NCBI GenBank assembly: GCA_032250735.1
Contig: JAVVEP010000008.1
Coordinates: 1,775-65,774 of the forward strand
Reading direction: 5' to 3'
DNA: 64,000 nucleotides
Origin: Gammaproteobacteria bacterium
Lineage (GTDB): Bacteria; Pseudomonadota; Gammaproteobacteria; SZUA-152
The notes beneath the pieces were generated by a model. The model was not told the DNA's origin. It saw only the letters and a list, made by a program, of their open reading frames with translations, and made no database searches. Both the position numbers and the translations under genes were made by a program. Within the stretch, counting starts at the first letter, position 1; every line of letters begins with the position of its first letter. Of the stretch, positions 1-14,030 are shown in pieces.

Positions 1-1398
1 GCCGGCACTGGTGACTCGCACAAATTCCGGCGTAGTGCGCATCTTGTCAATCGTCGCGCAGCCGGTATAACCCATGCTGGAACGAATACCGCCGAGCAGC
101 TGATGGACCACCGGCGCCAGCGGGCCCTTGAAGGGCACGCGGCCTTCAATACCTTCTGGCACCAGCTTGTCGGCCTTGCTGCCTTCCTGGAAATAACGGT
201 CGCTGGAGCCCTCGGCACCGGTCATGGCCCCCAGCGATCCCATCCCACGATAGGATTTGTAGGAACGCCCCTGAAACAGCTCCACCTCACCCGGCGCCTC
301 CTCGGTGCCCGCAAACATGCTGCCGATCATGATGGAATAGGCGCCGGCCACCAGGGCCTTGGCTACATCGCCGGAGTAGCGGATACCACCGTCGGCGATC
401 AGGGGCACGCCGGTGCCGATCAGCGCAGTCGCCACGTTGTCGATCGCGGTGATCTGCGGTACGCCGACGCCGGCCACGATACGGGTGGTGCAGATGGAAC
501 CGGGACCAATGCCCACCTTCACACCGTCGGCGCCGGCCGCCACCAGGGCCCTGGCCGCATCAGCGGTGGCGATATTGCCGCCGATCACCTGCACCTGCGG
601 GAAATTCTTCTTGACCCAGCTGACGCGATCCAGCACGCCCTGCGAATGACCGTGGGCGGTGTCCACCACCACCACGTCCACCCCGGCCTCGACCAGGGCC
701 GCAACGCGCTCTGCGGTGCCGTCGCCGGTACCCACCGCCGCGCCCACCCGCAGCCGGCCCTGGCTGTCCTTGCAGGCATTGGGATATTCCGAGGCCTTCT
801 GGATGTCCTTGACGGTGATCAGGCCGCGCAGCCGAAAATTATCATCGACCACCAGCACCTTCTCTATGCGGTAATTGTGCAGCAGGGCCAGCACTTCGTC
901 GTTAGTGGCCCCCTCTTTTACCGTCACCAGTTTGTCTTTACCGGTCATGATGCTGGAAACGGGGCTGTCGAAGCGGGTCTCGAAGCGCAGATCACGCCCG
1001 GTGACGATACCGACCAGTTCCTCGCCATCCACCACCGGCACGCCGGAGATATTGTGGGCGCGGGTCAGGGCCAGTACGTCACGGATACTGGCATTGGGGT
1101 TCACCGAAATGGGGTCCTTGATCACCCCGCTCTCGTATTTCTTCACCAGCCGCACCTGTTCCGCCTGCTGCTCGCCGGTCATATTTTTGTGAATGATGCC
1201 GATACCGCCCTCCTGCGCCATGCTGATGGCCAGGCGTGCCTCGGTCACAGTGTCCATGGCGGCGGAAATCAGCGGAATATTCAGGGTGATCTCCCGTGTC
1301 AGTTGGGTGACCAGGCTCACTTCCTTGGGCATGACGGTAGAATGGGCGGGAATCAGTAAAACATCATCGAAAGTAAGGGCTTCTTGAGCTATACGCAT
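1..1398 (-). CDS. guaB: IMP dehydrogenase (3' end runs off window start)
   Basis: Minus-strand translation from ATG at 1398 reads [24 protein letters not shown]...[10 protein letters not shown]...CBS region...[15 protein letters not shown], typical IMPDH. The listed + ORF 103..1359 (G/A/H-rich) is its antisense shadow. Confidence 0.9.
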
Positions 1399-1644
1399 GA
1401 GCGGGATTCCAAATAGGGCCAGAAGTGGGTGGGGCGCAGATTATATAAGCTGGATGGGTAGCGGGCAAACTACTCGGCCCGTTAGGCCCGTTTCAGGCTT
1501 GATCTGCGCAGGGGTTGTGTGATTAAGTAGCGCTCGTGTATAAGAATTACCTACAATCTCAAGGTAACAGCTAGTGATAACACGCCGTTTTCCGCTTCAG
1601 GCAACCGTCTGGAAGGAAAGTAAATACGCATCGGAGGAGGAATA

Positions 1645-1968
1645 ATGAACAAATCTTTGATTTTTGGTGCCCTGATCTTCGCCCTCAGTGGTTGCTCAAT
1701 GTTTAGCGGTGGCGACTCTGCAGGTTCCGCTAACGCCGCTGCCGCCAATTCGGCTATCGCCGCTGCTGAGGCCGCGCTGGAAAAGGCCCGTGGCGTTGAG
1801 GGTGAATGGCGTGATGCCGACAAGAAGATGCTCAAGGCCGCCAAGGCTGCTGCCAGCAAGGGTGAGTTTGAAGAGGCGATCAAGCTGGCCGACAAGGCCA
1901 AGTTTGAGGGCGAAATGGGCTACACACAGGCCATGCAACAGAAGGACGCTGGACCCTGGTTGTTCTAA
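1645..1968 (+). CDS. small lipoprotein (Ala/Lys-rich, helical)
   Basis: GGAGGAGG SD 6 nt upstream. N-terminus MNKSLIFGALIFALSGCS is a lipobox signal peptide. Followed by a strong hairpin terminator. Confidence 0.6.
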   Translation: MNKSLIFGALIFALSGCSMFSGGDSAGSANAAAANSAIAAAEAALEKARGVEGEWRDADKKMLKAAKAAASKGEFEEAIKLADKAKFEGEMGYTQAMQQKDAGPWLF

Positions 1969-2048
1969 CGCCGGTTTTTTGGGGACGGCCTTAGCGTAAC
2001 GGTACTATCAGTACCGGCCCCGTTGTCGGCCCGCTCTAAAAGATCACC

Positions 2049-2086
2049 AAAAAGGCAGACTGCCCCGGCAGACTGCCTTTTTTTAT
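2049..2086 (+). terminator. intrinsic terminator (A-run/GC hairpin/T-run)
   Basis: aaaaaggcagactgccccggcagactgccttttttt: near-perfect inverted arms followed by T7 run, directly downstream of lipoprotein gene. Confidence 0.8.
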
Positions 2087-2127
2087 GCCTCACGTTCGCG
2101 ACAGCCTTCAACCACCAAAATCACGCA

Positions 2128-2300
2128 GATCGGGATACACTATGCCCATGCCGCAGACGCCAGCCCCAGAATTGACCCACGCACCCGAGCGCAAGATATA
2201 CAGCGTTTCGATGCTGATTTACCCCGTGCCGGTGCAAGGGGCGGAGGCGCCACCCTCCATCGTCGAGGCCATGCACCGCCATTTTCATCTCAGACAATGA
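2128..2300 (+). pseudogene. xseA remnant (5' end fused to an internal xseA piece; mosaic, non-functional)
   Basis: 2128-2212 is ~90% identical to the xseA start region at 8442-8530 (MPQTPAPE..EREIYSVSML). 2213-2285 matches xseA 8990-9060 (LIYPVPVQGVEAPPAIVEA). The reading frame ends in TGA overlapping the ATG of the next gene (ATGA at 2297-2300). Confidence 0.8.
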
Positions 2301-3139
2301 AAATCGCATACTGCGGCTATGACTTCTTCAGCGAGTGTCTGCAGGCATTATTGTCCAGGGGCGACGATGTCTATCGCGTGTTCACCTTCGAGTGCGATAA
2401 CCGTTTTGATTTCAATCACAACATAACCGAAATCAGCCGGCAATATTCTCTGCCGTTAACGGATCGACCAATCGGCAAAAACGACCTGGAACAATTGCGG
2501 CAGGAAGGTTGCGAGCTGGTGATCACCGCAGGCTACCGCTACAAGGTTCCGGACTTGTCCTCAGTCGGTATCAAAGGCATCAATATCCACCCCACTCTGT
2601 TGCCGGTGGGCAGGGGACCCTGGCCGCTTCCGTGGACGATTTTATCCGGCCAGCAACGCAGTGGCGTGACGATACACAAACTGACTCCGGACTTTGATGC
2701 GGGCGACATCCTGGTGCAGCGCGAGTTTGCGCTGGAAGCCAATGAAAACCTTGAGTCTCTCAGCGCCAAAACCCAACTCCAGGCCAAGGCGATGCTGACC
2801 GATCTCATGGATAATTTTACGGACGCGTGGCAAAGCGCCCGGCCGCAGGGGGAGGAATACAGTGCCTGGCCACGGCCTTCCATCGCCGATCGCACCCTGG
2901 ATTGGAATGCCGGCGTGGCGAAGCTGGATACCCTCTGCCGGGCTTTCGGCAAAATGGGATGTTATGGAAAATTCGATGGCAAAATCTGGATTGTCTACAG
3001 GCTCGTCGCCTGGCCGGCCCATCACGATTACGAGAGCGGCGCGGTCGTGCACCAGACGAACACAGAAATGATCGTGGCGGCCGCTGAAGGCCTTGTCAGC
3101 CTTCAGTATTTTGAACCTGCATCGTTGATAGCAGGCTAG
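2297..3139 (+). CDS. formyltransferase-family protein (Fmt/ArnA-N-like catalytic domain, no Fmt C-terminal domain)
   Basis: 280 aa with HPTLLPVGRGPWPLPWTILSG...GVTIHKLTPDFDAGDIL, the formyl-transferase SLLP/His/Asp catalytic signature. Lower GC than flanks. Confidence 0.75.
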   Translation: MKIAYCGYDFFSECLQALLSRGDDVYRVFTFECDNRFDFNHNITEISRQYSLPLTDRPIGKNDLEQLRQEGCELVITAGYRYKVPDLSSVGIKGINIHPTLLPVGRGPWPLPWTILSGQQRSGVTIHKLTPDFDAGDILVQREFALEANENLESLSAKTQLQAKAMLTDLMDNFTDAWQSARPQGEEYSAWPRPSIADRTLDWNAGVAKLDTLCRAFGKMGCYGKFDGKIWIVYRLVAWPAHHDYESGAVVHQTNTEMIVAAAEGLVSLQYFEPASLIAG

Positions 3140-3153
3140 CGGCCAGTGGTGCA

Positions 3154-4929
3154 ATGACTCATAAATTTGAACGATACCTGGCGTGGCAGAAACGGATCGC
3201 GCGGTTTTTTCTGCCCTATTTAAAGCCGGACCATACCAAGCTGTATCTCCTGAGCGCCTTCAGCCTGCTCATGACCGCCACCAATGCCTTCTTGATCTGG
3301 AAACTCGGCACGGCCGTGTCGCAGATCAGCGGAGGAGAATTCGGCCAGCTGAATAATACCTTGCTGATGATCGCCGCGCTGGCTTTGCTTAACCAGGTGC
3401 TACGTATTGCCTACGCGTATGTCTACCAGCGCCTAAGCCTCGCCTTCGTCGACAGGCTCAGGGGCAAAATGTTCGAGCACATCATGGAGGTTTCGGTTCC
3501 CATTCTGCAGCGCTTCAAGAAGGGCGACTTGATGGCCCGACTGAGCAGCGATGTGGACCGTGCCCTGACCTATGTGATTAATCTGCCACTCAACCTATTT
3601 GAGAACATCACTGTATTTGTTGCCTATGCCGTTGTGCTGCTATGGATCGACTGGAAGTTATCTCTGATTGCGCTGACCATGGCCCCCCTCTTTTTTCTGT
3701 CCCAGTTATATGTGGCGCCAAAAAGCGGCGAAATTTCCCGCCAATTCACCAAGGAACGGGTCGAGCTGGCCAACATCGAGGAGCAGACGCTGAGTAATTT
3801 GCGGGGCATCAGCACCTTCAATAGCGAGCTGTTCATGCGCGATACGCACAAGACCCAGTTTGATAGCGCGCGGAAGTGGGCGTTGAAAACCAGAGAGATT
3901 CAGATTCTCTATAACTCCCTGTTTACCGCGCTACTGTATTTTGCGGGTGTCGTAGTCGTCTACAGCGGCATCGCGGAAATCGAGTCGGGACAATTAGCCA
4001 TTGGTGCGCTGGTCAGCTTTCTGATTTATATCCGCAACATCACCGGGCCCATTCGCACCCTGGCGCGCATACCGATTACGTTGCAATCCGACCGCGTTGC
4101 GGCGGAGCGTCTGATGGAAATCCTGGCAATGGAGCCCGCCGTCGAGGACAGAGAAAGCGGCCGGTCGCTGCGTGTGCCGCACGGTGACATTCTGTTCAAG
4201 GATGTGTCGTTCACCTACCCGAATCAGGACCGGCCGGTATTTTCCCGGCTTTCCGCTCAGATCCGTGCCGGTGAATCCGTTGCCCTGGTCGGGCCGAGCG
4301 GGGCCGGCAAGTCTACCTTTGCCGGTTTGTTGTTACGCTTCCATGATCCACAGCAGGGATCCATCTGCATCGACGGCGTGGACATCAAGTCCGTCAGCCT
4401 GCGATCGCTGCGCAATCAGATCTCCATCGTCTGGCAGGAACCGTTTTTGGTCAACGGCAGCATTCGGCAGAATTTTTACCTGGCAAAACCGGATGCGACG
4501 GAAGCGCAGATGCAGGATGCCTGCAACTCCAGTTATGCCTGGGAATTCGTCGCCGGCCTGGAGCATGGTTTGGACACTGTCATCGGCGCCAACGGCATTG
4601 AGTTATCGGCCGGGCAACGGCAACGTCTGGCCATTGCCCAGGCCTTTCTGCGTGATACGCCGCTATTGATTCTGGATGAGGCCTCATCCGCGCTCGACAG
4701 CCGATCCGAGCAAATGGTTGCGGACGCCTTGCAGGCCCTGCGCAAGCAACGCACCACGGTGATTATCGCCCATCGCTTTTCTTCCATCCGCAGTGTGGAC
4801 AGGATTCTCTATATCGATGGAAAGGGTTGCCTGACAGTGGGCACGCACCAGGAGTTACTTGATCAGCATAGTGAATACAAGGCTGCCGTCGATTGGCAAA
4901 TGGCGGAGCGGCCAGGGGATGTCGGTTAA
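3154..4929 (+). CDS. ABC exporter, fused permease-ATPase (MsbA/ABCB type), no peptidase domain
   Basis: 591 aa. N-terminal 6-TM region, then Walker A GPSGAGKST, signature LSAGQRQRLAIAQAF, Walker B LLILDEASSALD. 15 nt downstream of formyltransferase (same operon). Confidence 0.9.
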   Translation: MTHKFERYLAWQKRIARFFLPYLKPDHTKLYLLSAFSLLMTATNAFLIWKLGTAVSQISGGEFGQLNNTLLMIAALALLNQVLRIAYAYVYQRLSLAFVDRLRGKMFEHIMEVSVPILQRFKKGDLMARLSSDVDRALTYVINLPLNLFENITVFVAYAVVLLWIDWKLSLIALTMAPLFFLSQLYVAPKSGEISRQFTKERVELANIEEQTLSNLRGISTFNSELFMRDTHKTQFDSARKWALKTREIQILYNSLFTALLYFAGVVVVYSGIAEIESGQLAIGALVSFLIYIRNITGPIRTLARIPITLQSDRVAAERLMEILAMEPAVEDRESGRSLRVPHGDILFKDVSFTYPNQDRPVFSRLSAQIRAGESVALVGPSGAGKSTFAGLLLRFHDPQQGSICIDGVDIKSVSLRSLRNQISIVWQEPFLVNGSIRQNFYLAKPDATEAQMQDACNSSYAWEFVAGLEHGLDTVIGANGIELSAGQRQRLAIAQAFLRDTPLLILDEASSALDSRSEQMVADALQALRKQRTTVIIAHRFSSIRSVDRILYIDGKGCLTVGTHQELLDQHSEYKAAVDWQMAERPGDVG

Positions 4930-4972
4930 TCAAGCAAGAGCAGAAAATCCGCTCCGTTGACGAGGCAAATAA

Positions 4973-5000
4973 AAAGGGCATTGCCTTGGCAATGCCCTTT
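4973..5000. terminator. bidirectional hairpin terminator between convergent genes
   Basis: aaagggcattgccttggcaatgcccttttg: 11-bp perfect stem flanked by A-run and T-run. A second hairpin ctcagcgg...ccgctgag lies at 5010-5040. Confidence 0.7.
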
Positions 5001-5076
5001 TGTGGACGCTCAGCGGACTAACTGAAATCTACCGCTGAGTGTGGTGCATCACGCGCTAATGCGTGATGCGGGCCGG

Positions 5077-5289
5077 TTAGGCGCCACCGCCCATACCACC
5101 ACCCATACCGCCGCCCATACCACCAGCGGCTGCGGCTGGTGCCGGGGCTGGTGCTGGAGCTGGTGCCGGAGCTGCTGCAGCGGGTGCCGGAGCGGCGGCC
5201 ATGCCGCCCATACCACCACCCATGCCACCACCCATGCCACCCCCCATACCGCCGCCCATACCACCACCGCCTCCCATTCCTCCACCCAT
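5077..5289 (-). CDS. 70-aa low-complexity protein composed only of Gly, Met, Ala, Pro: (MGGG)7-AAAPAPAAAAPAPAPAPAPAPAAAA-(GGM..MGGG)3-A
   Basis: AAGGAGAG SD 5 nt upstream of the ATG at 5289; TAA at 5077 followed by a hairpin. Third-position variation among GGN and GCN/CCN codons is synonymous in this frame but nonsynonymous in the opposite-strand His/Thr frame. A longer GTG start at 5424 would add a 45-aa non-repetitive N-terminal extension. Confidence 0.5.
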   Translation of the reverse strand: MGGGMGGGGGMGGGMGGGMGGGMGGGMGGMAAAPAPAAAAPAPAPAPAPAPAAAAGGMGGGMGGGMGGGA

Positions 5290-5913
5290 AACGCTCTCCT
5301 TTGCAATATCCGAATATTGATTAAGTATGTGTTTCACGTTCATGACCGAGTATCCGTGGCCTGTGAAACACGGCTCCTGATTGCCGATTTTATTGCTGAT
5401 TGATTGGTCGGCAATCGCGCGCACGAGACCACGCGCTTCCGGAGACTAGGATATTTATGTCCAATGGTCAACATTTGATGGTCAAAATCCACGATAAAGC
5501 GGTCGGCCTAATACCGGTATTTTTTCGATGCTTATAACCCGGCAATAGCCCGGCAATCACTCAGGGGCGATGATGTTGCGAGCGAGACGTGGGTACAACA
5601 GTGTGATTATTAAAGTATTTTAGTCCTGCACCGGCTTTCGTCAGCGCTATCTCGTTGTACCGGCCAGTTGTGCCTACCAATTGTGCCGGCCAAATTCACC
5701 CATTCTCATCTCCGACTGTTATTCTGGCCTGTGTGAAATTACATTATGATTTTTCTAGCTCTGGCCGGACTTTCCGGCTTTGTGCAGAACCGAGGGGGAA
5801 TTTGCTGGCTTGCCGGACCTGCTTCGCATACCATTTTTATGGTTATAGGGGTGCGCACAATGGCGAGTTAGGAAGGCATATCCCATCGAATCCACACGCA
5901 AAGGTCTTCACTC

Positions 5914-6711
5914 ATGTCAATTGGAATAGAAACGGCCGGACGCCCGGCGCCACTCATTCTTCCCACCACCGAACCCGTGGCGGATTTTCATCCCGAGCCC
6001 GACGATTTCTGCTTCTGTAACAGCGGCAAGCGATTCGGTGGTTGTTGCGGATCCACCGACCTGGTGCGCCCGCCGCCTTATGGGCTGTTCATGTTCGAAA
6101 ATTTTCTCGATCCCAAGCAGGCCCGGGAGTTGACCGACTATGCCGAGCAGTGCGAGGGCGAGCGCCTGATGGTGATCGATAATATACAGTCCACCCCCGA
6201 CAACATCGTCAAGGTGGAAGACCCGCGGCGTATTACCGAACGGGTCAAGTTGGGTGCCAGACGCAAGGAAATCCAGGCGATGATGGGGCGGGCTTTTATC
6301 GATCTGGCGCAACGGTGTGTCGGCGCCAAACTGGATTGGTACGAGCTGCCCGATTTGATGCGGTACCGGCAAGGGGGATTTTATGTCCGGCACGCCGACA
6401 GCCAGAACAAGGATGAGGCGACCAACACGTGGCGCAAGGTGATCGATCGTGATCTCAGCATGCTCATCTACTTAAACGATGGCTATGAAGGCGGCGAGCT
6501 GAGCTTTTACAAATTCAATTATCAGATCCGGCCGCGGGCCGGTGCGGCGGTCCTGTTCCCCTCGGACCATCGCTATTTGCACCAGGCCGAAACCCTTAAA
6601 AGCGGTGTCCGCTATGCCCTGGTTAGCTGGGCCTCCGTGCAAGGGGTGCCGAAGATTGCGTCGCAGCCGCCCCAATGCGCCGTGCCTGTGGAATATAAGC
6701 CGGGTCAATAG
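5914..6711 (+). CDS. SEC-C motif / 2OG-Fe(II) oxygenase (PKHD/prolyl-4-hydroxylase-like)
   Basis: N-terminal CFCNSGKRFGGCCGS is a SEC-C zinc motif. C-terminal HADSQ...GGELSF...VLFPSDHRYLHQAETLKSGVRYALVSW matches the HxD...H...R facial triad/2OG-binding pattern of the P4H/PKHD hydroxylase fold. Confidence 0.8.
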   Translation: MSIGIETAGRPAPLILPTTEPVADFHPEPDDFCFCNSGKRFGGCCGSTDLVRPPPYGLFMFENFLDPKQARELTDYAEQCEGERLMVIDNIQSTPDNIVKVEDPRRITERVKLGARRKEIQAMMGRAFIDLAQRCVGAKLDWYELPDLMRYRQGGFYVRHADSQNKDEATNTWRKVIDRDLSMLIYLNDGYEGGELSFYKFNYQIRPRAGAAVLFPSDHRYLHQAETLKSGVRYALVSWASVQGVPKIASQPPQCAVPVEYKPGQ

Positions 6712-7889
6712 CCCAGCAAATCGCCGGGCAGTCCGTCCTCGGGGTAATCTGCTGCCAAAAGTTTTCGCGCCAATTCCTCCGCCGCCGCCAGCTCCGCCTG
6801 ATGTGCGGACAATAGTGCTGTTATTTCTCCGTCCCGTTGTTGCGGGCTGTAGGTGAATTTACTGTTCTTGGAATAGACGCCGAGCAGCGGCGCCATGGCC
6901 TGCTCAAGCGTTGTCCCCTCGATCGGCATCAAACCGAACCAGTCTGCGCATCGTGCAACGGCGGTGTAGGGATTGGCGAGCATGTGATTGAACTCGAGAC
7001 TGCGTACGCGGGCCGGCATGCTGCGGTAGGCCTTGTGGAACAGTGCGATGTTGTACGACCAATACAATGCCGCCAGTTCCCCATAGGCGTCCTCGGCCAC
7101 CGTGAAGTCCGGGCCGAGCCCCAGCAGTTGATTGATGGGCTGGCGCAACGCGGCGTAGCGCTGCGCGATCCACTGCTTGCGGTTATTCGCCTTGAGGCAG
7201 CCGGCGAGAAATTCTTGCAGCGGGGTGTGCATAAACAGCAGAGGGGCGTCCGCATGCCGCTCGATCATGGCCAGCATGAGGGGGTTGGCATAATCGTTGG
7301 CCTTGACCACCGCCATCTGCTGCGCATCAAAACGGCGTGACAACAATGCCATGACGCGCCGGTACCAGGCATCTTTATCCTGGGGGGAATTGGCCGGATT
7401 GCGCAGATATGCCAGCAGGTTGCCCAGCAGTTCCGGCTCGCGGATCGGCAGCGTGTGATACGCCGCGTCGAGGGCCTGGGACATGAGTGTTGAACCGCAA
7501 AAGGCGGTGTGAAAGATGAAGGCGGTTTGTTGACCGGCGATTTTGTCACAGGCCGACCGTAGCCATGCCAGGTCAGTTTGGATAATGCAGCTACCTTTGA
7601 TGCGTCCCGGGTCCATAAACACGCTGTCCCGATACGTCTGCGGCGACATCATGATGAAGTAGCTCTGGTATTCGGCAAAATTTACCCGCGCCGGAAACAG
7701 GGCGGGGCTGGCATCGATGTGCTCCAGCGCCTCCTGCAATTGCGCAGTCAGCGGCTCGTCTGCGACAACACCTTCGGTGGTTATAGCGGCCACGATGTGG
7801 GGCTGCGAGCGCTCGGCCTTGCCGCAACAGGCTCCGTAGACCAGGCCGCTGCCGCACGGGCAAGGCATCTCACTCGATTCGATATCCAT
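6705..7889 (-). CDS. SEC-C motif protein with ~370-aa C-terminal domain of unknown function (possibly P-loop/sulfotransferase-like; unverified)
   Basis: True start MDIESSEMPCPCGSGLVYGACCGK (ATG 7889, SD AAGGGAGA). The ORF-track N-terminal extension to 8144 is read-through. Converges on and overlaps the previous gene by 7 nt. HTAFCGST resembles a PAPS-binding loop, but only weakly. Confidence 0.6.
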   Translation of the reverse strand: MDIESSEMPCPCGSGLVYGACCGKAERSQPHIVAAITTEGVVADEPLTAQLQEALEHIDASPALFPARVNFAEYQSYFIMMSPQTYRDSVFMDPGRIKGSCIIQTDLAWLRSACDKIAGQQTAFIFHTAFCGSTLMSQALDAAYHTLPIREPELLGNLLAYLRNPANSPQDKDAWYRRVMALLSRRFDAQQMAVVKANDYANPLMLAMIERHADAPLLFMHTPLQEFLAGCLKANNRKQWIAQRYAALRQPINQLLGLGPDFTVAEDAYGELAALYWSYNIALFHKAYRSMPARVRSLEFNHMLANPYTAVARCADWFGLMPIEGTTLEQAMAPLLGVYSKNSKFTYSPQQRDGEITALLSAHQAELAAAEELARKLLAADYPEDGLPGDLLGY

Positions 7890-7921
7890 TGTTATTCTCC
7901 CTTCTCTATCCTGGCGAGCCG

Positions 7922-8340
7922 TCAATAGCCCAGGTTCGGCGCCAGCCAATACTCCGCGAACATGCGCGTCATGTCCTTGCGTTGCGCGTAGTCGTCGACC
8001 TGATCCTGGTTGATTTTGCCTACCGTGAAATAGGCGGCCTCGGGGTGCGAAAAATAGAAACCGCTGACGGCGGCGGTGGGCAACGAGGCCATGGCCTCGG
8101 CGAACCAGCTGCCGGTGCTTTCCTTCACCGCCATGAGATCCCACAGCAGGTTCTTTTCGGTGTGCTCGGGGCAGGCAGGATAACCGGGCGCGGGGCGAAT
8201 GCCCTGGTATTTCTCATAGATGAGATCGGTGTTGTCGAAGTACTCGTTCGGCGCGTAGCCCCAGATCTCCCTGCGCGCCTTCCGGTGCAAAAGTTCAGCG
8301 AAGCTCTCGGCGAAACCGCGAGGAAGTATAAACCCCCTGT
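7922..8340 (-). pseudogene. methionine synthase (metH) C-terminal fragment, ~139 codons, 5' truncated
   Basis: Translation ...HRKARREIWGYAPNEYFDNTDLIYEKYQGIRPAPGYPACPEHTEKNLLWDLMAVKE...VSGFYFSHPEAAYFTVGKINQDQVDDYAQRKDMTRMFAEYWLAPNLGY* is the conserved reactivation-domain C-terminus of B12-dependent MetH. Similarity stops abruptly near 8340, where lipoprotein-like sequence begins. Confidence 0.75.
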
Positions 8341-8365
8341 TCGCTCTAAAACCACCCCGGACCAC

Positions 8366-8440
8366 GCTGAAAAGGCCCGTGGCGTTAAGGGTGAATGGCG
8401 TAATGCCGACAAGGCCAAGTTTGAGGGCGAAATAGGCTAC
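8366..8440 (+). pseudogene. remnant of the lipoprotein gene (internal and 3' deletions) abutting xseA
   Basis: EKARGVKGEWRNADKAKFEGEIGYA corresponds to lipoprotein residues at 1778-1935, with the ~100 nt between two gccgacaag repeats deleted. Confidence 0.7.
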
Positions 8441-8455
8441 GCATCGCGATACACT

Positions 8456-9829
8456 ATGCGCATGCCGCAGACACCAGCCCCTGAATCGACCCTTGCACCC
8501 GAGCGCGAGATCTACAGCGTTTCGATGCTGAACAATGCCGCGCGCGACCTGTTGGAGCGGGAATTTCCGCTGATCTGGGTGGAGGGTGAGATCTCCAACC
8601 TCGCCCGCCCCGCCTCCGGCCACCTCTATTTCAGCCTCAAGGATGCCGACGCCCAGCTGCGCTGCGCCATGTTCAAGCTGCGCAACCGGCTGGTGGGTTT
8701 CCGCCCCGACAATGGTCAGCAGGTACTGGTGCGCGGACGGCTCAGCCTCTATCCGGCGCGGGGTGACTACCAGCTCATTGTCGAACACATGGAAGAGGCC
8801 GGCGACGGCGCCCTGCGCCGCCAGTTCGAGCTACTCAAACAACGCCTGGGTCACGAAGGCCTGTTCGATGCCGGGAGCAAACAACCCCTACCGGCCCTGC
8901 CCCGCCGACTGGGGGTGATCACCTCACCCAGCGGGGCGGCCATCCGCGACATCCTCAGCGTGCTCAGGCGGCGCTTTCCAAGCATCCCGGTGCTGATTTA
9001 CCCCGTGCCGGTGCAAGGGGTGGAGGCGCCACCCGCCATCGTCGAGGCGCTGCGGACGGCGAATACCCGCCGGGAATGCGATCTGCTGATCCTGGCCCGC
9101 GGCGGTGGCTCACTGGAAGACCTGTGGGCCTTCAACGACGAGGCGGTGGCCCGCGCCATCCACGCCAGCACCCTTCCGGTGGTCTGCGGCGTGGGCCATG
9201 AGGTCGACGTCACCATCGCCGATTTTGTGGCCGATGTGCGTGCGCCCACGCCCTCGGCGGCGGCCGAGCTGGTCAGCCCGGATCGCAACGAGTGGCTGGA
9301 CAGTTTTGCGGCCTGGCAGCAGCGCCTGACACGCAGTTGGCAGACCCAGCTGGCCCGGCGTCAGCAACACCTGGACTGGCTACGCCGGCAACTGAAACAC
9401 CCGGGACAGCGACTGCGTGAACGGGCCCAACGGCTGGATGAGCTGGAGCAGCGTCTCAGGCTGGCGCGGCTGGGCCGACTGCGCCAGCTGCAGGCCCGGC
9501 TGAACACCCTGCGCGCGCGGCTGTATGGCCACTCGCCGGTGCAGCCGCTGCGCGCGACCCGCCTGCGACTGGACAGCCTGCAGCACCGCAGTCAGCGCGC
9601 CATTCGCGCCAGACTGACCCAACAGCGCGCCCGGCTTGGCAATCTCAGCCGGGCGCTGGATGCGGTCAGCCCGCTGGCCACCCTCGGCCGCGGCTACGCC
9701 ATCGTGCAGAAACCCGACGGCAAGGTCGTGCGCCGCGTCGACGAGGTGTGCGTGGGGGAGCGCATCAACACCCGGCTCGGTAGCGGCCGTCTCGACTGTC
9801 GTGTCGAGGCCGTGCACGGGGAGGATTGA
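8456..9829 (+). CDS. xseA: exodeoxyribonuclease VII large subunit
   Basis: MRMPQTPAPE...IWVEGEISNLARPASGHLYFSLKDADAQLRCAMF (OB fold)...GVITSPSGAAIRD...ARGGGSLEDLWAFNDE, then coiled-coil Arg/Gln-rich tail. ORF-track start at 7889 is upstream read-through. Confidence 0.9.
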   Translation: MRMPQTPAPESTLAPEREIYSVSMLNNAARDLLEREFPLIWVEGEISNLARPASGHLYFSLKDADAQLRCAMFKLRNRLVGFRPDNGQQVLVRGRLSLYPARGDYQLIVEHMEEAGDGALRRQFELLKQRLGHEGLFDAGSKQPLPALPRRLGVITSPSGAAIRDILSVLRRRFPSIPVLIYPVPVQGVEAPPAIVEALRTANTRRECDLLILARGGGSLEDLWAFNDEAVARAIHASTLPVVCGVGHEVDVTIADFVADVRAPTPSAAAELVSPDRNEWLDSFAAWQQRLTRSWQTQLARRQQHLDWLRRQLKHPGQRLRERAQRLDELEQRLRLARLGRLRQLQARLNTLRARLYGHSPVQPLRATRLRLDSLQHRSQRAIRARLTQQRARLGNLSRALDAVSPLATLGRGYAIVQKPDGKVVRRVDEVCVGERINTRLGSGRLDCRVEAVHGED

Positions 9830-9835
9830 AGGCCT

Positions 9836-10738
9836 GTGAATACCGCCATCAAATGGCTGATTTACTTTGGCCTGCTGCTCACCACCGGCCTGCCGGCGAT
9901 CGCCCTGGCGGCAACGCCCGCTGCCAGCCCCCTGCCCCAGACCGCGGCCGTGCCCGGCGGTATCGTCACGCTGAATCTGGGCCCCGCCGAGGGCCCGGCG
10001 CCGGTGGTGCATTACCAGCAGCGGCGGGTGATGGTGGTGCAGGCCGACGGGCACTGGCAGGCGGTGGTCGGCATCCCCCTCACTGCCCGCAGTGGCCCGC
10101 AGAACCTCAGGCTGGCCGGTCGCAGCCAGACCGTGGAGTTTGAGGTCCAGGCCAAGGACTATGCCGAGCAGCGACTCACCATCAAAGACAAACGCAAGGT
10201 CAATCCCAACCCGGATGACCTGACCCGCATTCGTGGCGAACGGGGGCGCATTGTTAACGCGCTACGTCACTGGCAATTTCAGGATAGCGTGGACACCCGC
10301 TTCATCCTGCCGGTGACAGGCCGACTCAGCAGCCCCTTCGGCCTGCGGCGTTTTTTCAACGAGCAACCCCGCAAACCCCACAGCGGCATCGATATCGCCG
10401 CGCCGGAGGGCACGCCCATTGTCGCCCCCGCCGCCGGGCGCATCATCGAAACCGGGGACTTTTTCTTCAACGGCAACTCGGTGTTCATCGACCATGGCCA
10501 GGGGCTGGTGACGATGTACTGCCACATGAGTCGGGTGGAGGTGAAGGCCGGACAGCGGGTCGCGCGTGGCGAGGCCATCGGCGCCGTGGGCCAGACCGGT
10601 CGCGTCACCGGCCCGCACCTGCACTGGAGTGTCAGCCTCAACGATGCGCGGGTGGATCCGGGCCTGTTTTTCGAGGATCTCGAGACACTGCTCACGCCCG
10701 CCGCGGCCCCGCTGAGCGAGGCCCGCAGCGCCCCCTGA
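9836..10738 (+). CDS. M23 family metallopeptidase (LytM/NlpD-like), membrane anchored
   Basis: N-terminal TM segment; HSGIDIAAPEGTPIVAPAAGRI...GPHLHWSV are the HxxxD and HxH M23 motifs. Confidence 0.85.
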   Translation: MNTAIKWLIYFGLLLTTGLPAIALAATPAASPLPQTAAVPGGIVTLNLGPAEGPAPVVHYQQRRVMVVQADGHWQAVVGIPLTARSGPQNLRLAGRSQTVEFEVQAKDYAEQRLTIKDKRKVNPNPDDLTRIRGERGRIVNALRHWQFQDSVDTRFILPVTGRLSSPFGLRRFFNEQPRKPHSGIDIAAPEGTPIVAPAAGRIIETGDFFFNGNSVFIDHGQGLVTMYCHMSRVEVKAGQRVARGEAIGAVGQTGRVTGPHLHWSVSLNDARVDPGLFFEDLETLLTPAAAPLSEARSAP

Positions 10739-10811
10739 TCCCCCTTGCGCCGACGCAGGCGGGCCGGTAAGGTTGCGCGCCACAGCAACTCACACGAACC
10801 ACGCAGTCACC

Positions 10812-11609
10812 ATGAAAAAATTTGCCCAAACCCTGGTCGAAAAAACCGCCTTTGAATATTTCATCGTCGGACTCATCCTGTTCAACGCCGTGATCCTCGG
10901 CCTGGAGACCTCGCCCGAAATTGTCGCCGAGTACGATAGCTGGCTGCACTTTGGCAATCAGTTTATCCTCGCCATCTTTATCCTCGAGGCGGCACTGAAG
11001 ATCATCGCCGTCGCACCCCGGCTCAGGCTCTATTTCGGCAACGGCTGGAACCTGTTCGACTTCACCGTGGTGGTGCTCTCGCTGATTCCCGCCAGCGGCG
11101 AATACGCGATGATCGCCCGCCTGGCACGGCTGCTGCGGGTCGCGCGGCTGATCTCTACCATCCCCGAGCTGCGGTTGATCATTTCCACCCTGGTGCGCTC
11201 CATCCCCAGCATGGGCCACGTGCTGATGTTGATGGGGGTAATCTTCTACATCTACGCGGTGGCTGGCTATCACCTGTTCCACGAACACGATCCTGAACAC
11301 TGGCGCAATCTGGGTATGTCGTTGCTCACCCTGTTCCGCGTCGTTACCCTCGAAGACTGGACCGACGTGATGTACACCGCCATGGAGATGCACTACCTGA
11401 GCTGGATGTACTTCGTCAGCTTCGTGGTGGTGGGTACCTTCGTGGTCATCAACCTGTTCATCGCCGTGGTGCTCAACAACCTCGAGGAGGCCAAACAGGA
11501 ACAACTGGCGGCGCTACAGACACCGGCCAGCAAGGACGAGATCCTCAAGGAATTGCAGCAGACACAGGAAGCGCTCAGGCGACTCCAGGCGAGGTTGGAA
11601 AAACAGTGA
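10812..11609 (+). CDS. bacterial voltage-gated ion channel (BacNav/NaChBac family), pore filter TLEDWTD
   Basis: 266 aa. S4 segment with Arg every third residue (RLARLLRVARLIS). Pore helix FRVVTLEDWTDVMY. Single 6-TM domain. Confidence 0.85.
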   Translation: MKKFAQTLVEKTAFEYFIVGLILFNAVILGLETSPEIVAEYDSWLHFGNQFILAIFILEAALKIIAVAPRLRLYFGNGWNLFDFTVVVLSLIPASGEYAMIARLARLLRVARLISTIPELRLIISTLVRSIPSMGHVLMLMGVIFYIYAVAGYHLFHEHDPEHWRNLGMSLLTLFRVVTLEDWTDVMYTAMEMHYLSWMYFVSFVVVGTFVVINLFIAVVLNNLEEAKQEQLAALQTPASKDEILKELQQTQEALRRLQARLEKQ

Positions 11610-12025
11610 GCCGCGATACCATCAGCAACCGCATCGACATCAGCCTGGAGTTCTATTTCAAGGGGGAACGCTATACGCCCACCGCCAGCATCGAGCTGGA
11701 TGGGCTCATCGGCAACGACGACGGCCTGCCCTCGTTTCACCAGATCCTGGCCAGGCGCAACGATATCGACCTGCTTTCCTACCACTATGAGATCATGCTG
11801 GAGGAGCCGGTGCGGGTCACCGGCGCAGAGGGCCTGGTGGCAGACTATGTGACCGATGGCCGGCTGGATGAGGCGGGTTTTCTACAGGCCTGGCGCGAAC
11901 AGGGGATGTCGGCGCAACTGCAGGCCATCGCCCAACAGTATTTAGCGATCGATGATTTGCAGAAAAACCCAGCATTGAAAGATGCCTTAACCGCCGCTTT
12001 TCAACTTGGCAGAGAGATCGGCTAA
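11606..12025 (+). CDS. hypothetical protein translationally coupled to the channel gene
   Basis: Start overlaps the channel stop (GTGA). 139 aa, no recognisable motif. Confidence 0.5.
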   Translation: MSRDTISNRIDISLEFYFKGERYTPTASIELDGLIGNDDGLPSFHQILARRNDIDLLSYHYEIMLEEPVRVTGAEGLVADYVTDGRLDEAGFLQAWREQGMSAQLQAIAQQYLAIDDLQKNPALKDALTAAFQLGREIG

Positions 12026-12041
12026 AACCCCGCTCGCTGCG

Positions 12042-13148
12042 TTAGTCCTCCGCACCCATGGCCTTCGCCCGCGCCTGCCGCGCGGCATTTTCCGCCTCGT
12101 GTTGCGCGGCATTCCAGTCCGGCTCCGCTTCCGGCCAGCCCGCCAGGTGTTTTTGCACCAGGGCCGACAGGGCCTTGATGTGGTCCGGCCGGTCATTCAG
12201 CGCGGGAATGTAGTGAAACTGCTCGCCGCCGGCGTCGAGATAGGCGTGCTTGTTTTCCACCGTGATCTCTTCCAGGGTTTCCAGGCAGTCCGCCGAAAAC
12301 CCGGGGCAGATGATGTCCACCGATTTCACCCCGGCGGCGCCCAGCTCCCGCAGGGTCTCGATGGTGTAGGGCTGTAGCCACTCCTCACGACCAAAGATGG
12401 ACTGAAAGGTCAGCTGCCAGCGGTCAGCTGCCAGGCCCAGACGTTCGGCCACCAGCCGCGCGGTCTTCTGGCAATGGCAGTGATAGGGATCGCCTTCGGT
12501 GAGAAAACGCCGGGGGGTGCCGTGAAAGGAGAACAGCAATTTCTGCGGCGGCTCGCGTCCGCTCCAGGACTCCCGAATGCTGGCGGCCAGCGCCTCAATA
12601 TAACCGGTCTCATCGTGATATTGATTGACGAAGCGCAGCTCCGGCATCCAGCGCCAGTGGGCCATCTCCGCGGCAATGGCATCAAAGGTGGAGGCCGTGG
12701 TACTGCACGAATACTGCGGATACAGCGGCAGCACCAGGATGCGACGCGCACCGGCGTCGCGCAATTTTTGCATCGCCGAGGCCAGCGAAGGGTTGCCGTA
12801 ACGCATGCCCAGCTCCACCACCACCGGGCCGGGCAGACGCTGCGCCAGTTCGGTGCGCAGGGCCTCCAGCTGGCGTCGGGCGATCGCCAGCAGCGGCGAG
12901 CCGTCCTCGGTCCAGATACTGGCGTAGGCCCGGGCCGAACGCGCCGGCCGGATGCGCAGAATCACCCCGTGTAGAATCAGCCACCAAAGGGGGCGCGGCA
13001 GGTTGTCCACAATGCGCGGGTCCCACAGGAACTCCCCCAGATAACGACGCAAGGCCCCCGCAGTGGGGGCATCCGGCGTACCCAGATTGGTGATGAGCAC
13101 ACCGGTGGTCATCTGACTGTCGTGGCTAAAACGGGTGCTGGTCGACAT
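12042..13148 (-). CDS. hemH: ferrochelatase
   Basis: GVLITNLGTPDAPT...RYLGEFLWDPRIV...VLPLYPQYSCSTT...HGTP signature. The N-terminal 12 aa may be an extension; the alternative start is the Met of MTTGVL. Confidence 0.9.
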   Translation of the reverse strand: MSTSTRFSHDSQMTTGVLITNLGTPDAPTAGALRRYLGEFLWDPRIVDNLPRPLWWLILHGVILRIRPARSARAYASIWTEDGSPLLAIARRQLEALRTELAQRLPGPVVVELGMRYGNPSLASAMQKLRDAGARRILVLPLYPQYSCSTTASTFDAIAAEMAHWRWMPELRFVNQYHDETGYIEALAASIRESWSGREPPQKLLFSFHGTPRRFLTEGDPYHCHCQKTARLVAERLGLAADRWQLTFQSIFGREEWLQPYTIETLRELGAAGVKSVDIICPGFSADCLETLEEITVENKHAYLDAGGEQFHYIPALNDRPDHIKALSALVQKHLAGWPEAEPDWNAAQHEAENAARQARAKAMGAED

Positions 13149-13379
13149 GTTTTCCCCTGTTTTTTTTGTAATCCGGCTAGCTCATGCCTTCGCGTAGTGC
13201 GCGCGTGGCCGCCTGGTTCCACCGGCAGCCGGCTGCGACAAACTGCCGCAGCGCATAAGCAGCACATAAAAAGACCCGTAGTATAAACCGCTCACGGGGA
13301 ATTATCGTGCGATAATCACCACATGTTCTTACCCGCACCAAGCAATACATTTGCGCGCCCCAAGGCCTCGTACTGAGCA

Positions 13380-14030
13380 ATGAGCAAAACCCTGAAAGTG
13401 GCCCTCGGCCTGGGCTTCGCCATGTTGCTCATCGGCATCGCCATCAGCTTCACGCAACGAGGATCCGTTGCCACGGACAATGACGATGCGGTGCTAGCGG
13501 ATGCGCGTCTTGCCACACCCAGACCGCTGACCGCCTTTGCGCTGACGGCCCACGATTCAAGGCCGCTCGACCGGGAGCGGTTGCGGGGCCGATGGACGCT
13601 GCTGTTTTTCGGCTATACCCACTGCCCCGATGTCTGCCCGATCACCCTCAGCGAACTGGCGGGCATGGCCAGAACGCTGGAACCGACGCTACGGGACGAC
13701 ACCCAGTTTGTGTTTGTCTCGGTGGATCCACAACGGGACACACCCGAGTCACTGGGGGACTACGTCCGCTATTTTGACGAGCGCTTTTTAGGTGCAACGG
13801 GCAGCATCGAGGCGTTGACCTCACTCGCCCGGCAACTGGACTCCCGGTTCAGCCTGGAGACCGATCCCGCCGGTGAACCCGTCGTCAACCATTCCAGCGC
13901 CATGTTGTTGATCGACCCCCAGGTCCGGTATTATGCCCGCCTCAAGGCACCGCACTATGCCGAGCAGATTCGCACGCAGTATCTGGCCCTACGGGCGGAA
14001 TACCAACAGTTTCAATCCAGTCGCCCATAA
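13380..14030 (+). CDS. SCO1/SenC family copper chaperone (thioredoxin fold)
   Basis: N-terminal TM anchor; LLFFGYTHCPDVCP CxxxC copper-binding motif. Confidence 0.85.
   Translation: MSKTLKVALGLGFAMLLIGIAISFTQRGSVATDNDDAVLADARLATPRPLTAFALTAHDSRPLDRERLRGRWTLLFFGYTHCPDVCPITLSELAGMARTLEPTLRDDTQFVFVSVDPQRDTPESLGDYVRYFDERFLGATGSIEALTSLARQLDSRFSLETDPAGEPVVNHSSAMLLIDPQVRYYARLKAPHYAEQIRTQYLALRAEYQQFQSSRP

What the first reader, a model, noticed from the sequence alone, without database searches (positions are those of the whole stretch)
1778..9060. Island is bracketed by imperfect direct duplications of the lipoprotein-xseA 5' region, consistent with Campbell-type integration followed by decay
Copy A (1778-2290) holds the intact lipoprotein gene and terminator plus an xseA start fused to an internal xseA piece, with an internal ~460 nt deleted at gatgctga/ggtgctga microhomology. 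Copy B (8366-9060) holds a lipoprotein remnant and intact xseA; the deletion between gccgacaag direct repeats removed ~100 nt, and the terminator region is also gone. Each gene survives intact in only one copy. A circular element carrying a homologous lipoprotein-xseA fragment and integrating by single crossover would give exactly this pattern. The xseA remnant stop overlaps the formyltransferase ATG (ATGA), so the first island gene may now be driven by xseA signals.
Basis: seen in the sequence. Interest (0 to 1): 0.6.

Follow-up and report, generated by a model that had tools for sequence, protein, structure and literature searches.

The report
Gene island flanked by target duplication
About 6 kb of foreign genes was spliced, with no integrase, between a lipoprotein gene and the DNA-repair gene xseA, duplicating about 1 kb of host DNA; the duplication is real, old and shared by two bacterial lineages, but it is a known kind of event.

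Summary
Four collinear direct-repeat blocks (45, 39, 89 and 73 nt; 89-96% identity) bracket a 6.09 kb insert. The gene assignments, the three deletions (465, 72 and 202 nt) and the ATGA overlap all hold.

A 94%-identical relative (L085-L088) has the intact empty site guaB-lipoprotein-xseA. A second lineage (L093, 92% identical, independent samples) carries the same island, junctions, duplication and deletions. It is therefore not an assembly artefact, and it predates the split of the two island-bearing lineages.

The cargo is a promoterless chromosomal fragment. It is cut inside metH and about 8-20 nt upstream of a formyltransferase gene. Its closest known relative (L081, 76-83% aa) sits next to an untruncated metH. 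No integrase, transposase, tRNA or plasmid copy was found.

The duplicated host segment (about 0.97 kb) came from the host population itself (at least 97% identical at origin), not from a foreign homologue. The topology equals Campbell integration, but it equally fits foreign DNA captured at a tandem-duplication joint.

"Decay" was not gradual. All three deletions arose early. Since then some remnants have drifted neutrally (14-20%). The terminator plus xseA upstream region in copy A, and the lipoprotein remnant abutting xseA in copy B, are conserved (0-7% and 2%).

This is a well-documented example of a known process.

The parts
1645..1968 (+). Intact lipoprotein gene (107 aa, SAXB-like), left flank and part of copy A
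   Evidence: ORF with lipobox. NCBIfam SoxAX-binding protein, E 3e-17, below cut-off. dN/dS about 0.09 versus L085. Adjacent to xseA in relatives.
1772..2274 (+). Copy A of the duplicated host segment: lipoprotein 3' part, intergenic region, xseA 5' piece, xseA internal piece
   Evidence: Repeat blocks. Collinear with L085 1604-2574, minus 465 nt.
2049..2085 (+). Lipoprotein-gene intrinsic terminator (hairpin plus T tract), kept only in copy A
   Evidence: Inverted repeat I6. Fold -54 kcal/mol for 1969-2095, z -5.3. 0/37 differences from L093. Conserved in L085.
2086..2141 (+). Native xseA upstream region, now upstream of the island's fmt-ABC operon (putative promoter/leader)
   Evidence: 4/56 differences between window and L093, against 14-20% neutral. 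Absent from copy B. No sigma-70 consensus hit, so function is inferred.
2142..2300 (+). xseA remnant ORF, 52 codons: codons 1-25, in-frame 465-nt deletion joint at 2210-2217, internal piece 2218-2274, novel tail; its TGA overlaps the fmt ATG
   Evidence: (Exonuc_VII_L, 1e-4). Same 52-codon ORF and ATGA overlap in L093. Divergence 12.3%, dN/dS 0.34.
2275..2290 (.). Left joint J1: xseA homology ends at 2274; cargo homology to L081 starts at 2291 (visibly about 2288)
   Evidence: Joint identical in position in L093.
2297..3139 (+). Cargo gene 1: formyltransferase-like (Fmt/ArnA-N type)
   Evidence: Pfam Formyl_trans_N 1e-16 and Formyl_trans_C 4e-6. NCBIfam. 78% aa to L081.
3154..4929 (+). Cargo gene 2: MsbA-like ABC exporter (fused TMD-NBD)
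   Evidence: Pfam. NCBIfam MsbA 3e-121, below cut-off. 83% aa to L081.
4972..5001 (.). Bidirectional hairpin terminator between the convergent ABC and peptide genes
   Evidence: Inverted repeat I13. Fold z -3.8.
5077..5289 (-). Cargo gene 3: 70-aa (MGGG)n-(AP)n-(MGGG)n peptide with AAGGAG ribosome-binding site
   Evidence: Conserved in L083, L090-L092 and L093. Promoter-like site 5414-5387.
5914..6711 (+). Cargo gene 4: 2OG-Fe(II) oxygenase (P4H-like) with N-terminal SEC-C-type Cys motif
   Evidence: Pfam 2OG-FeII_Oxy_3 6.5e-16. 81% aa to L081.
6705..7889 (-). Cargo gene 5: SEC-C motif protein with sulfotransferase fold
   Evidence: Pfam SEC-C. AF2 pLDDT 91. All top Foldseek PDB hits are sulfotransferases. 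154 homologues.
7922..8314 (-). metH 3' fragment (last ~130 codons of the activation domain), right end of the cargo
   Evidence: Pfam Met_synt_B12 3e-50, HMM positions 160-272 only. In L081 an untruncated metH sits in the same position. Neutral divergence 14% and 17-nt indel versus L093.
8315..8361 (.). Right joint J2: about 47 nt of filler of unknown origin
   Evidence: No significant match anywhere. Shared with L093 at 18% divergence.
8362..9053 (+). Copy B of the duplicated host segment: lipoprotein patches 8362-8413 and 8405-8443, xseA leader 8443-8455, xseA 5' 598 nt
8405..8455 (+). Lipoprotein-gene patch 2 plus 13-nt leader, now directly upstream of the intact xseA; conserved, so probably its present regulatory region
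   Evidence: 1/50 differences between window and L093, against about 16% neutral (binomial P about 0.002). No consensus promoter found.
8456..9829 (+). Intact xseA (exonuclease VII large subunit)
   Evidence: Pfam. 97% aa to L085 XseA, dN/dS 0.13.

Best explanation
This is a single, old, recombinase-independent duplicative insertion. A 6.09 kb promoterless piece of another gammaproteobacterium's chromosome was joined by two illegitimate junctions into the lipoprotein-xseA region. The piece carries a five-gene cluster that normally lies just downstream of metH. It was cut inside metH at one end and about 8-20 nt before the formyltransferase start codon at the other.

The insertion happened in an ancestor of at least two present-day lineages. 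One junction lies at xseA codon ~199 and the other at lipoprotein codon ~44. About 0.97 kb of host DNA, derived from the host population itself, therefore ended up on both sides of the insert. That is the same end product as Campbell integration of a circle made of cargo plus that host segment, or as capture of the cargo at the joint of a tandem duplication.

Three microhomology-mediated deletions (465, 72 and 202 nt) followed very soon. They cut every homology tract to 89 nt or less and so blocked excision by homologous recombination.

The rewired locus then became stable. The native xseA upstream region and a short xseA leader ORF (stop overlapping the fmt ATG) now feed the fmt-ABC operon. 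The intact xseA is preceded by a conserved remnant of the lipoprotein gene.

Shown: the anatomy, the empty site, shared ancestry, host origin of the repeats, foreign origin of the cargo, and selection on the cargo and on some remnants. Inferred: the order of molecular steps, the stabilising role of the deletions, and the promoter use.
For: Repeats and deletions.

Empty site. L085-L088 are 93.7-94.5% identical in both flanks and contiguous across the site. The order guaB-lipoprotein-xseA-M23 also holds in more distant relatives.

Second occupied lineage. L093-L095 align to window 1162-10330 at 91.8%, with identical joints, filler and all three deletions.

Co-divergence and selection. dS is 0.15-0.26 for island genes and 0.16-0.23 for flanking genes, with dN/dS 0.10-0.17. 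All five cargo ORFs are intact, while metH', the filler and lipoprotein patch 1 differ by 14-18%.

Host origin of the repeats. In lipoprotein block 1, all five synonymous differences from L085 are shared by copies A and B. Only about 5-6 changes in about 230 nt separate the A and B clades before the window/L093 split.

L085 is not an excisant. It keeps the ancestral base at two sites where both B copies share a derived one, and its intergenic region is very different.

Foreign, non-mobile cargo. The best outside homologues are 76-83% aa and lie next to an untruncated metH in L081. The cluster occurs in other contexts without bracketing repeats. No homologue above 76% comes from the empty-site lineage's samples. 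There is no integrase or transposase, no tRNA and no plasmid copy.

Regulatory rewiring. Cargo homology starts 6 nt before the fmt ATG. The terminator (0/37) and the xseA upstream region (4/56) are conserved. So is the lipoprotein patch 2 plus leader (1/50), against 14-20% neutral.
Against: The molecular route (circle plus single crossover, direct capture at a duplication joint, or one-step template switching) leaves the same product and cannot be resolved from sequence.

The three lineages form a near-star (75/89/93 lineage-specific changes). 'Insertion after L085 split' therefore rests on few sites.

A few sites group L093's functional lipoprotein copy with L085, against the other three copies. 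The lipoprotein-xseA intergenic region shows an excess of L085-specific changes (21 versus 10 and 7). Both hint at recombination among lineages or rate heterogeneity that I cannot explain.

No consensus sigma-70 promoter was found upstream of either xseA copy, and there are no expression data. The xseA remnant ORF evolves nearly neutrally (12.3%), so its open frame may be chance.

All sequences are metagenome assemblies.
Confidence: 0.75

Rival explanations
1. A foreign circular element that already carried a homologous lipoprotein-xseA fragment entered the cell and integrated by one homologous crossover. The two copies then decayed gradually.
For: The topology is exactly that of insertion-duplication: complementary truncations, with each gene intact once. 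The empty site is a single copy. A circle-plus-crossover step cannot be excluded as the last step.
Against: The homologous segment was at least 97% identical to the host's at origin. It carries the host lineage's own synonymous states. The cargo's nearest relatives, by contrast, are only 76-83% aa identical. The hybrid must therefore have been assembled inside this population by two illegitimate joints. There are no replication, transfer or recombination genes and no plasmid relative. All three deletions are shared by both lineages, and only 1-3 and 17-nt indels have arisen since. Decay was therefore not gradual.
Confidence: 0.15
2. A one-step replicative template-switching event (MMBIR/FoSTeS-like). 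A broken fork copied the foreign fragment and, by serial microhomology-primed jumps, short patches of the lipoprotein gene and xseA. The 'deletions' were then never separate events.
For: Every internal joint sits at a microhomology: 9/9 GCCGACAAG, 7/8 GATGCTGA, about 5-6 nt CAC(A/G)CA. The 47-nt filler at J2 has unknown origin. All joints are already present in the common ancestor of both island-bearing lineages, with only about 1% substitution on the stem.
Against: The patches are strictly collinear and co-oriented. They add up to one contiguous 0.97 kb segment minus three gaps, as expected from deletions in a full duplicate. Slippage deletions between short direct repeats give the same joints. 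Early selection against long flanking repeats explains the timing equally well.
Confidence: 0.12
3. The island and duplication were ancestral to all three lineages. L085 lost them by recombination between the flanking repeats.
For: The three lineages are nearly equidistant. In xseA, L085 is slightly closer to the window than L093 is (dS 0.119 versus 0.160). A crossover within block 3 could in principle regenerate an intact locus.
Against: L085 keeps the ancestral base at the XseA Ala/Val site and in the leader, where both B copies share derived bases. Its lipoprotein-xseA intergenic region differs strongly from the copy A version that an excisant would inherit. All more distant relatives have the empty arrangement. 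No island homologue above 76% comes from the L085-type samples.
Confidence: 0.06
4. Assembly artefact, or a site-specific (integrase or transposase) insertion.
For: The source is a metagenome-assembled genome. Repeats can mislead assemblers.
Against: The same junctions, filler and deletions occur in independent assemblies from other samples at 8% divergence. The copies differ in sequence and structure. There is no integrase, transposase, inverted repeats, tRNA or short att-like repeat.
Confidence: 0.02

Closest known systems
Campbell-type single-crossover integration (insertion-duplication, as with suicide plasmids or lambda-dgal heterogenotes; established knowledge)
   Same: The insert is bracketed by a direct duplication of one contiguous host segment. 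The left copy has the downstream gene 3'-truncated and the right copy has the upstream gene 5'-truncated. Each gene is intact once. The empty site is a single copy.
   Different: No vector or element backbone is present, and no circular form is known. The homologous segment came from the host population itself. The duplication was quickly broken up by three deletions and is now fixed in two diverged lineages.
Illegitimate and homology-facilitated illegitimate recombination of foreign DNA; tandem-duplication join points at microhomologies that place host promoters in front of promoterless transferred genes (PMC11111574 abstract)
   Same: There is no recombinase. The junctions fall at arbitrary points inside genes. 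Microhomologies are used. A promoterless foreign operon is fused to a host gene's 5' region.
   Different: Here a single cargo copy sits at the joint of a ~1 kb duplication, rather than an amplified array. The event is natural and ancient, not selected in the laboratory.
Classical genomic islands (integrase-mediated, tRNA-associated, short att direct repeats)
   Same: Foreign gene block, presence/absence polymorphism among close relatives, flanking direct repeats.
   Different: There is no integrase, no tRNA and no att-sized repeats. The repeats are ~1 kb of protein-coding host DNA. GC content is hardly deviant (56.8% versus 58.9%).

Membership tests
Campbell-type insertion-duplication | Insert flanked by a direct duplication of one contiguous chromosomal segment | tested here: met
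   Four collinear blocks add up to L085 1604-2574 (~0.97 kb) minus three gaps.
Campbell-type insertion-duplication | Complementary truncations: left copy ends inside the downstream gene, right copy starts inside the upstream gene | tested here: met
   Copy A ends at the xseA position equivalent to 9053. Copy B starts at the lipoprotein position equivalent to 1772-1778.
Campbell-type insertion-duplication | Related genomes without the insert carry the segment once | tested here: met
   L085-L088 and more distant relatives.
Campbell-type insertion-duplication | A circular intermediate carrying insert plus homology segment; a donor/recipient mosaic switching at one crossover | tested here: inconclusive
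   No plasmid or element carries the cargo. The copies were at least 97% identical at origin, so no mosaic is visible. The circle itself is not testable from sequence.
Integrase-mediated genomic island / ICE / prophage | Tyrosine or serine recombinase gene at an island end | tested here: not met
   Pfam of all island ORFs shows no recombinase.
Integrase-mediated genomic island / ICE / prophage | Integration in a tRNA/tmRNA or defined att site with short direct repeats | tested here: not met
   No tRNA or tmRNA in the window. The repeats are ~1 kb of coding DNA.
Transposon / IS-mediated insertion | Transposase, terminal inverted repeats, short target-site duplication | tested here: not met
   No transposase. 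No terminal inverted repeats at 2275/8361.
Exonuclease VII large subunit (XseA), copy B | Full-length OB fold plus Exonuc_VII_L domain under purifying selection | tested here: met
   Pfam 4e-116 and 3e-32. dN/dS 0.13.
Sulfotransferase superfamily (cargo SEC-C protein) | Sulfotransferase fold | tested here: met
   AF2 pLDDT 91. 23 PDB sulfotransferases at E <= 1e-3, TM up to 0.59.
Sulfotransferase superfamily (cargo SEC-C protein) | PAPS binding and sulfotransfer activity | not testable with these tools
   There is only an invariant HTAFCGSTL loop at the position expected for a phosphosulfate-binding loop. Pfam Sulfotransfer_3 is below threshold.

The most novel reading that the evidence does not exclude
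The bracket is not passive debris. It is the fossil of a selected two-step fixation of integrase-free foreign DNA. First, three microhomology deletions arose within the short interval before the two island-bearing lineages split. They removed every homology tract longer than 89 nt and thereby 'locked in' an otherwise excision-prone insertion-duplication. Second, the surviving pieces were exapted: the xseA promoter and leader ORF now drive the promoterless foreign operon, and a fragment of the lipoprotein coding sequence became the conserved upstream region of xseA.
Probability: 0.4. Interest if true: 0.55.

Novelty: new member of a known kind. Interest (0 to 1): 0.38.

Why it matters
Most genomic islands are explained by integrases or transposases. 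How 'naked' chromosomal fragments become fixed is documented mainly in laboratory transformation experiments. This locus offers a natural case with all three states needed for inference:
- an empty site;
- two independently evolving occupied sites;
- a close relative of the cargo in its original context next to metH.

It shows three things. The homology that brackets the insert came from the recipient population. The duplication was dismantled early rather than eroded slowly. Host regulatory DNA was redistributed between a host gene and the foreign operon.

These are useful details for models of horizontal gene transfer, but they do not overturn any of them. The cargo, an uncharacterised cluster around a (MGGG)n-(AP)n peptide, may be the more interesting biology.

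Tried and rejected
- **Genome-contig scan with XseA.** The best species representatives were only 67-68% identical, which was useful only for family-level synteny.
- **Metagenome-contig scan with the lipoprotein.** Low-complexity patterns saturated the limit and gave one distant locus. The scan was wasted.
- **Exact look-ups of the window's XseA, lipoprotein and SEC-C proteins.** None is on record.
- **A third, more diverged lineage as donor of the duplicated segment.** Rejected for the lipoprotein part: five of five synonymous differences from L085 are shared by both copies. No XseA homologue carries the remnant's N-terminal variants.
- **Origin of the J1 and J2 filler.** Only chance-level matches. 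A 10-nt match (CGCTCTAAAA, also at 2030-2039) is treated as unproven.
- **Consensus promoter scans.** Nothing upstream of either xseA copy. The terminator scanner missed the 2049-2082 hairpin because its loop is 2 nt, but folding confirmed it.
- **Rfam and tRNA scans.** Empty.
- **Plasmid search with the whole island.** Only generic metH and ABC hits.
- **Bracketing repeats around the cluster in four other loci.** None.
- **Literature searches for this gene cluster and for natural Campbell-type islands.** Nothing specific.

Full report
**1. The observation**

The region was read and its ORFs listed. The repeat finder and BLASTN of 1400-2400 against 8200-9900, and of 1400-9900 against the whole window, give four collinear, co-oriented blocks:

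| Copy A | Copy B | Identity |
|---|---|---|
| 1780-1824 (extendable to 1772) | 8369-8413 (extendable to 8362) | 96% |
| 1888-1926 | 8405-8443 | 95% |
| 2129-2217 | 8443-8531 | 90%, E 9e-27 |
| 2202-2274 | 8981-9053 | 89%; core 95%, E 3e-21 |

No other part of the window matches them.

Pfam confirms the gene calls:
- an xseA fragment in the ORF ending at 2300;
- a formyltransferase-like gene, 2297-3139;
- an ABC exporter, 3154-4929;
- a 2OG-Fe(II) oxygenase, 5914-6711;
- a SEC-C motif protein, 6705-7889 (minus strand);
- the last ~130 codons of a metH activation domain, 7922-8314 (minus strand);
- a full xseA, 8456-9829.

The deletions are as follows:
- 465 nt (8532-8996; 155 codons, in frame) at GATGCTGA/GGTGCTGA;
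- 72 nt (not ~100) between perfect GCCGACAAG repeats;
- 202 nt (equivalent to 1927-2128) at a CAC(A/G)CA microhomology.

The third deletion removes the end of the lipoprotein gene, its terminator and the xseA upstream region. The hairpin 2049-2082 folds as a strong terminator. The remnant's TGA overlaps the formyltransferase ATG.

**2. The empty site**

Species-level relatives (XseA 50-68% aa) all have guaB(-)-lipoprotein(+)-xseA(+)-M23 peptidase(+) with nothing in between.

A protein search found an XseA that is 97% identical (P0121). Its four contigs, L085-L088, are 93.7% identical to window 170-2217 and 94.5% identical to window 8443-13999. They run straight from the lipoprotein gene through the terminator into xseA. 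It shows that the ancestral state has one copy of the duplicated segment, about 0.97 kb (L085 1604-2574).

**3. A second occupied lineage**

Searching the metH fragment returned a 139-aa truncated MetH (P0241). Its contigs, L093-L095, come from three other sequencing runs. They carry guaB, the lipoprotein gene, a 52-codon xseA remnant, the same five cargo genes, metH', and then xseA.

L093 aligns to window 1162-10330 end to end at 91.8%. Both joints, the 47-nt filler, all three deletions and the ATGA overlap are in the same places.

An assembly artefact is thereby excluded. The insertion, the duplication and the deletions all predate the split of these two lineages.

**4. Age and selection**

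Between window and L093:
- dS is 0.16 (xseA) and 0.23 (lipoprotein) for flanking genes;
- dS is 0.15-0.26 for the four cargo enzymes, with dN/dS 0.10-0.17.

The cargo has therefore co-diverged with its flanks under purifying selection.

Per-segment divergence between window and L093:

| Class | Segment | Divergence |
|---|---|---|
| Neutral | metH' | 14.0% (plus a 17-nt indel) |
| Neutral | J2 filler | 18.2% |
| Neutral | lipoprotein patch 1 | 16.3% |
| Neutral | spacer 5293-5913 | 18.1% |
| Neutral | 1969-2048 | 20.0% |
| Close to neutral | xseA remnant ORF | 12.3% |
| Conserved | terminator 2049-2085 | 0/37 |
| Conserved | xseA upstream region 2086-2141 | 4/56 |
| Conserved | lipoprotein patch 2 plus leader, 8405-8455 | 1/50 |

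The last value has a binomial P of about 0.002 against 16% neutral (my calculation).

**5. Where the duplicated segment came from**

With L085 as a third sequence, the five differences in lipoprotein block 1 that separate L085 from the window are all synonymous. All five are shared by copies A and B.

With five sequences (L085, A and B of the window, A and B of L093), only about 5-6 substitutions in about 230 nt lie on the branches separating the A and B clades before the window/L093 split. The terminal branches carry 4-6% each.

The two copies were therefore at least 97% identical when formed, so they came from the host population itself. No other XseA in the database has the remnant's N-terminal variants.

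L085 keeps the ancestral base at two positions (the leader, and an Ala/Val codon of xseA) where both B copies share a derived base. Its intergenic region differs strongly from copy A. L085 therefore looks like an original empty allele and not an excisant.

The three lineages are close to a star (75, 89 and 93 specific changes). The simplest picture is a presence/absence polymorphism that arose about when they separated.

Two things remain unexplained:
- the excess of L085-specific changes in the lipoprotein-xseA spacer (21 versus 10 and 7);
- a few sites where L093's functional lipoprotein copy agrees with L085 against the other three copies.

Both may reflect recombination among the lineages.

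**6. Where the cargo came from**

The SEC-C protein has 154 homologues in environmental Gammaproteobacteria. The best outside this clade is 76% identical.

On its contig (L081) the order is metH, then the SEC-C protein, with the oxygenase, ABC exporter and formyltransferase on the opposite strand. Protein identities to the window are 72-83% and DNA identity is 80-87%. The metH there has a complete activation domain and continues upstream.

Alignment shows that cargo homology starts at 2291 and ends at about 8313.

The cluster sits in unrelated contexts in L083, L089 and L090-L092, without bracketing repeats.

No homologue above 76% was seen from the samples that yielded the empty-site lineage. 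No MetH above 72% matched metH'. An intragenomic origin is therefore unlikely.

There is no integrase or transposase, no tRNA, no Rfam hit and no plasmid with the cluster. GC content is 56.8% against 58.9% for the window.

The cargo is thus a random, promoterless chromosomal fragment rather than a mobile element.

**7. Mechanism**

Two joints at arbitrary positions inside genes (J1 at 2275-2290; J2 at 8315-8361, with 47 nt of filler) are the real integration event.

Three routes give the same product:
- ligation of cargo to a ~1 kb host fragment, followed by a single crossover (Campbell);
- direct capture at the joint of a tandem duplication;
- a one-step template-switching event.

They cannot be told apart from sequence. 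What can be said is that the deletions were early. A rough calculation weights time by remaining neutral target length: stem about 1% with 1.9 kb, against two tips of about 5% with about 0.7 kb. Under that weighting only about one fifth of large deletions should fall on the stem, yet all three do (P about 0.01-0.03; inference).

After the deletions, the longest block of homology is 89 nt and the longest identical run is 30 nt. I therefore favour early selection for variants that could no longer lose the island by homologous recombination between the repeats. A single complex event is the alternative.

**8. Regulatory consequence**

The cargo brings at most about 8-20 nt upstream of fmt, with no Shine-Dalgarno sequence. 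The strong lipoprotein terminator lies at 2049-2085. Transcription of fmt-ABC must therefore start in 2086-2296, which is the native xseA upstream region. That region is conserved between the two lineages.

The remnant ORF delivers ribosomes to the ATGA overlap in both lineages. Its near-neutral divergence means the open frame may be fortuitous.

The intact xseA lost that upstream region. It is now preceded by a lipoprotein-gene patch that is far more conserved than neutral DNA.

Consensus scans found no sigma-70 promoter at either place. The promoter assignments are therefore inferences. The idea that host DNA placed by duplication activates promoterless transferred genes has an experimental precedent (PMC11111574).

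**9. Comparison and verdict**

The structure meets the three testable criteria of an insertion-duplication. It fails those of integrase- or transposase-mediated islands.

It is a new, unusually well-documented member of a known kind of event. The mechanism proposed is right in topology, but it is not demonstrated in route and is wrong about a foreign homologous fragment and about gradual decay.

Noticed in passing
window 5077-5289 (-); L083 12811-13020; L090 12621-12803; L091 9555-9686; L092 8770-8919; L093 (reverse complement) about 3900-4110: A 43-70 aa peptide made almost only of (MGGG)n repeats around an (Ala-Pro)n core. It has a strong ribosome-binding site and is conserved in the cluster across relatives whose SEC-C proteins are only about 50% identical (L090-L092). 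The repeat number varies. It is absent from L081 and L089. Gene callers miss it or call the wrong frame (L093).
   Followed up: partly
window 2297-7889 and homologous loci L081, L083, L089-L093: An uncharacterised conserved cluster. It comprises a formyltransferase-like protein, an MsbA-like ABC exporter, the Gly/Met/Ala-Pro peptide, a P4H-like 2OG-Fe(II) oxygenase and a sulfotransferase-fold protein. The two last enzymes each carry an N-terminal SEC-C zinc-knuckle motif. This suggests a peptide hydroxylation/sulfation/export pathway. No literature match was found.
   Followed up: partly
window 1645-1968: The 'lipoprotein' matches the NCBIfam SoxAX-binding protein (SAXB) at E 3e-17, below the family cut-off. 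This hints at a sulfur-oxidising host. Copper-chaperone genes (SCO1, PCuAC-like) lie a few kb downstream, as annotated in L085.
   Followed up: no
window 8285 / L093 (reverse complement) about 7088-7104: A 17-nt indel in the metH remnant. L093 has a near-tandem repeat, GTACAAAAGTTCGGCTC / GTGCAAAAGTTCGGCGA. This is typical pseudogene slippage after the lineages split.
   Followed up: partly
window 1969-2141 versus L085 1801-1976: The lipoprotein-xseA spacer shows 21 L085-specific changes plus indels, against 10 (window) and 7 (L093). The guaB-lipoprotein spacer is almost invariant in all three. The cause is unexplained; it may be rate heterogeneity or recombination.
   Followed up: partly
window 5293-5913: A 620-nt non-coding stretch with the lowest GC of the region (49-52%) lies between the peptide gene and the oxygenase gene. 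It evolves neutrally (18%) between window and L093 and has no Rfam match.
   Followed up: partly
window 8456 versus 8462: The public annotation of this MAG starts XseA at the second ATG (455 aa, MDT8384053.1). It gives consecutive accessions to the SEC-C protein and XseA, so the metH and lipoprotein remnants are not annotated as proteins.
   Followed up: no
protein P0362 (cluster of P0001): A third SEC-C protein variant, at least 90% identical, sits on a 1.6 kb Logan contig. This may be a third island-bearing lineage.
   Followed up: no
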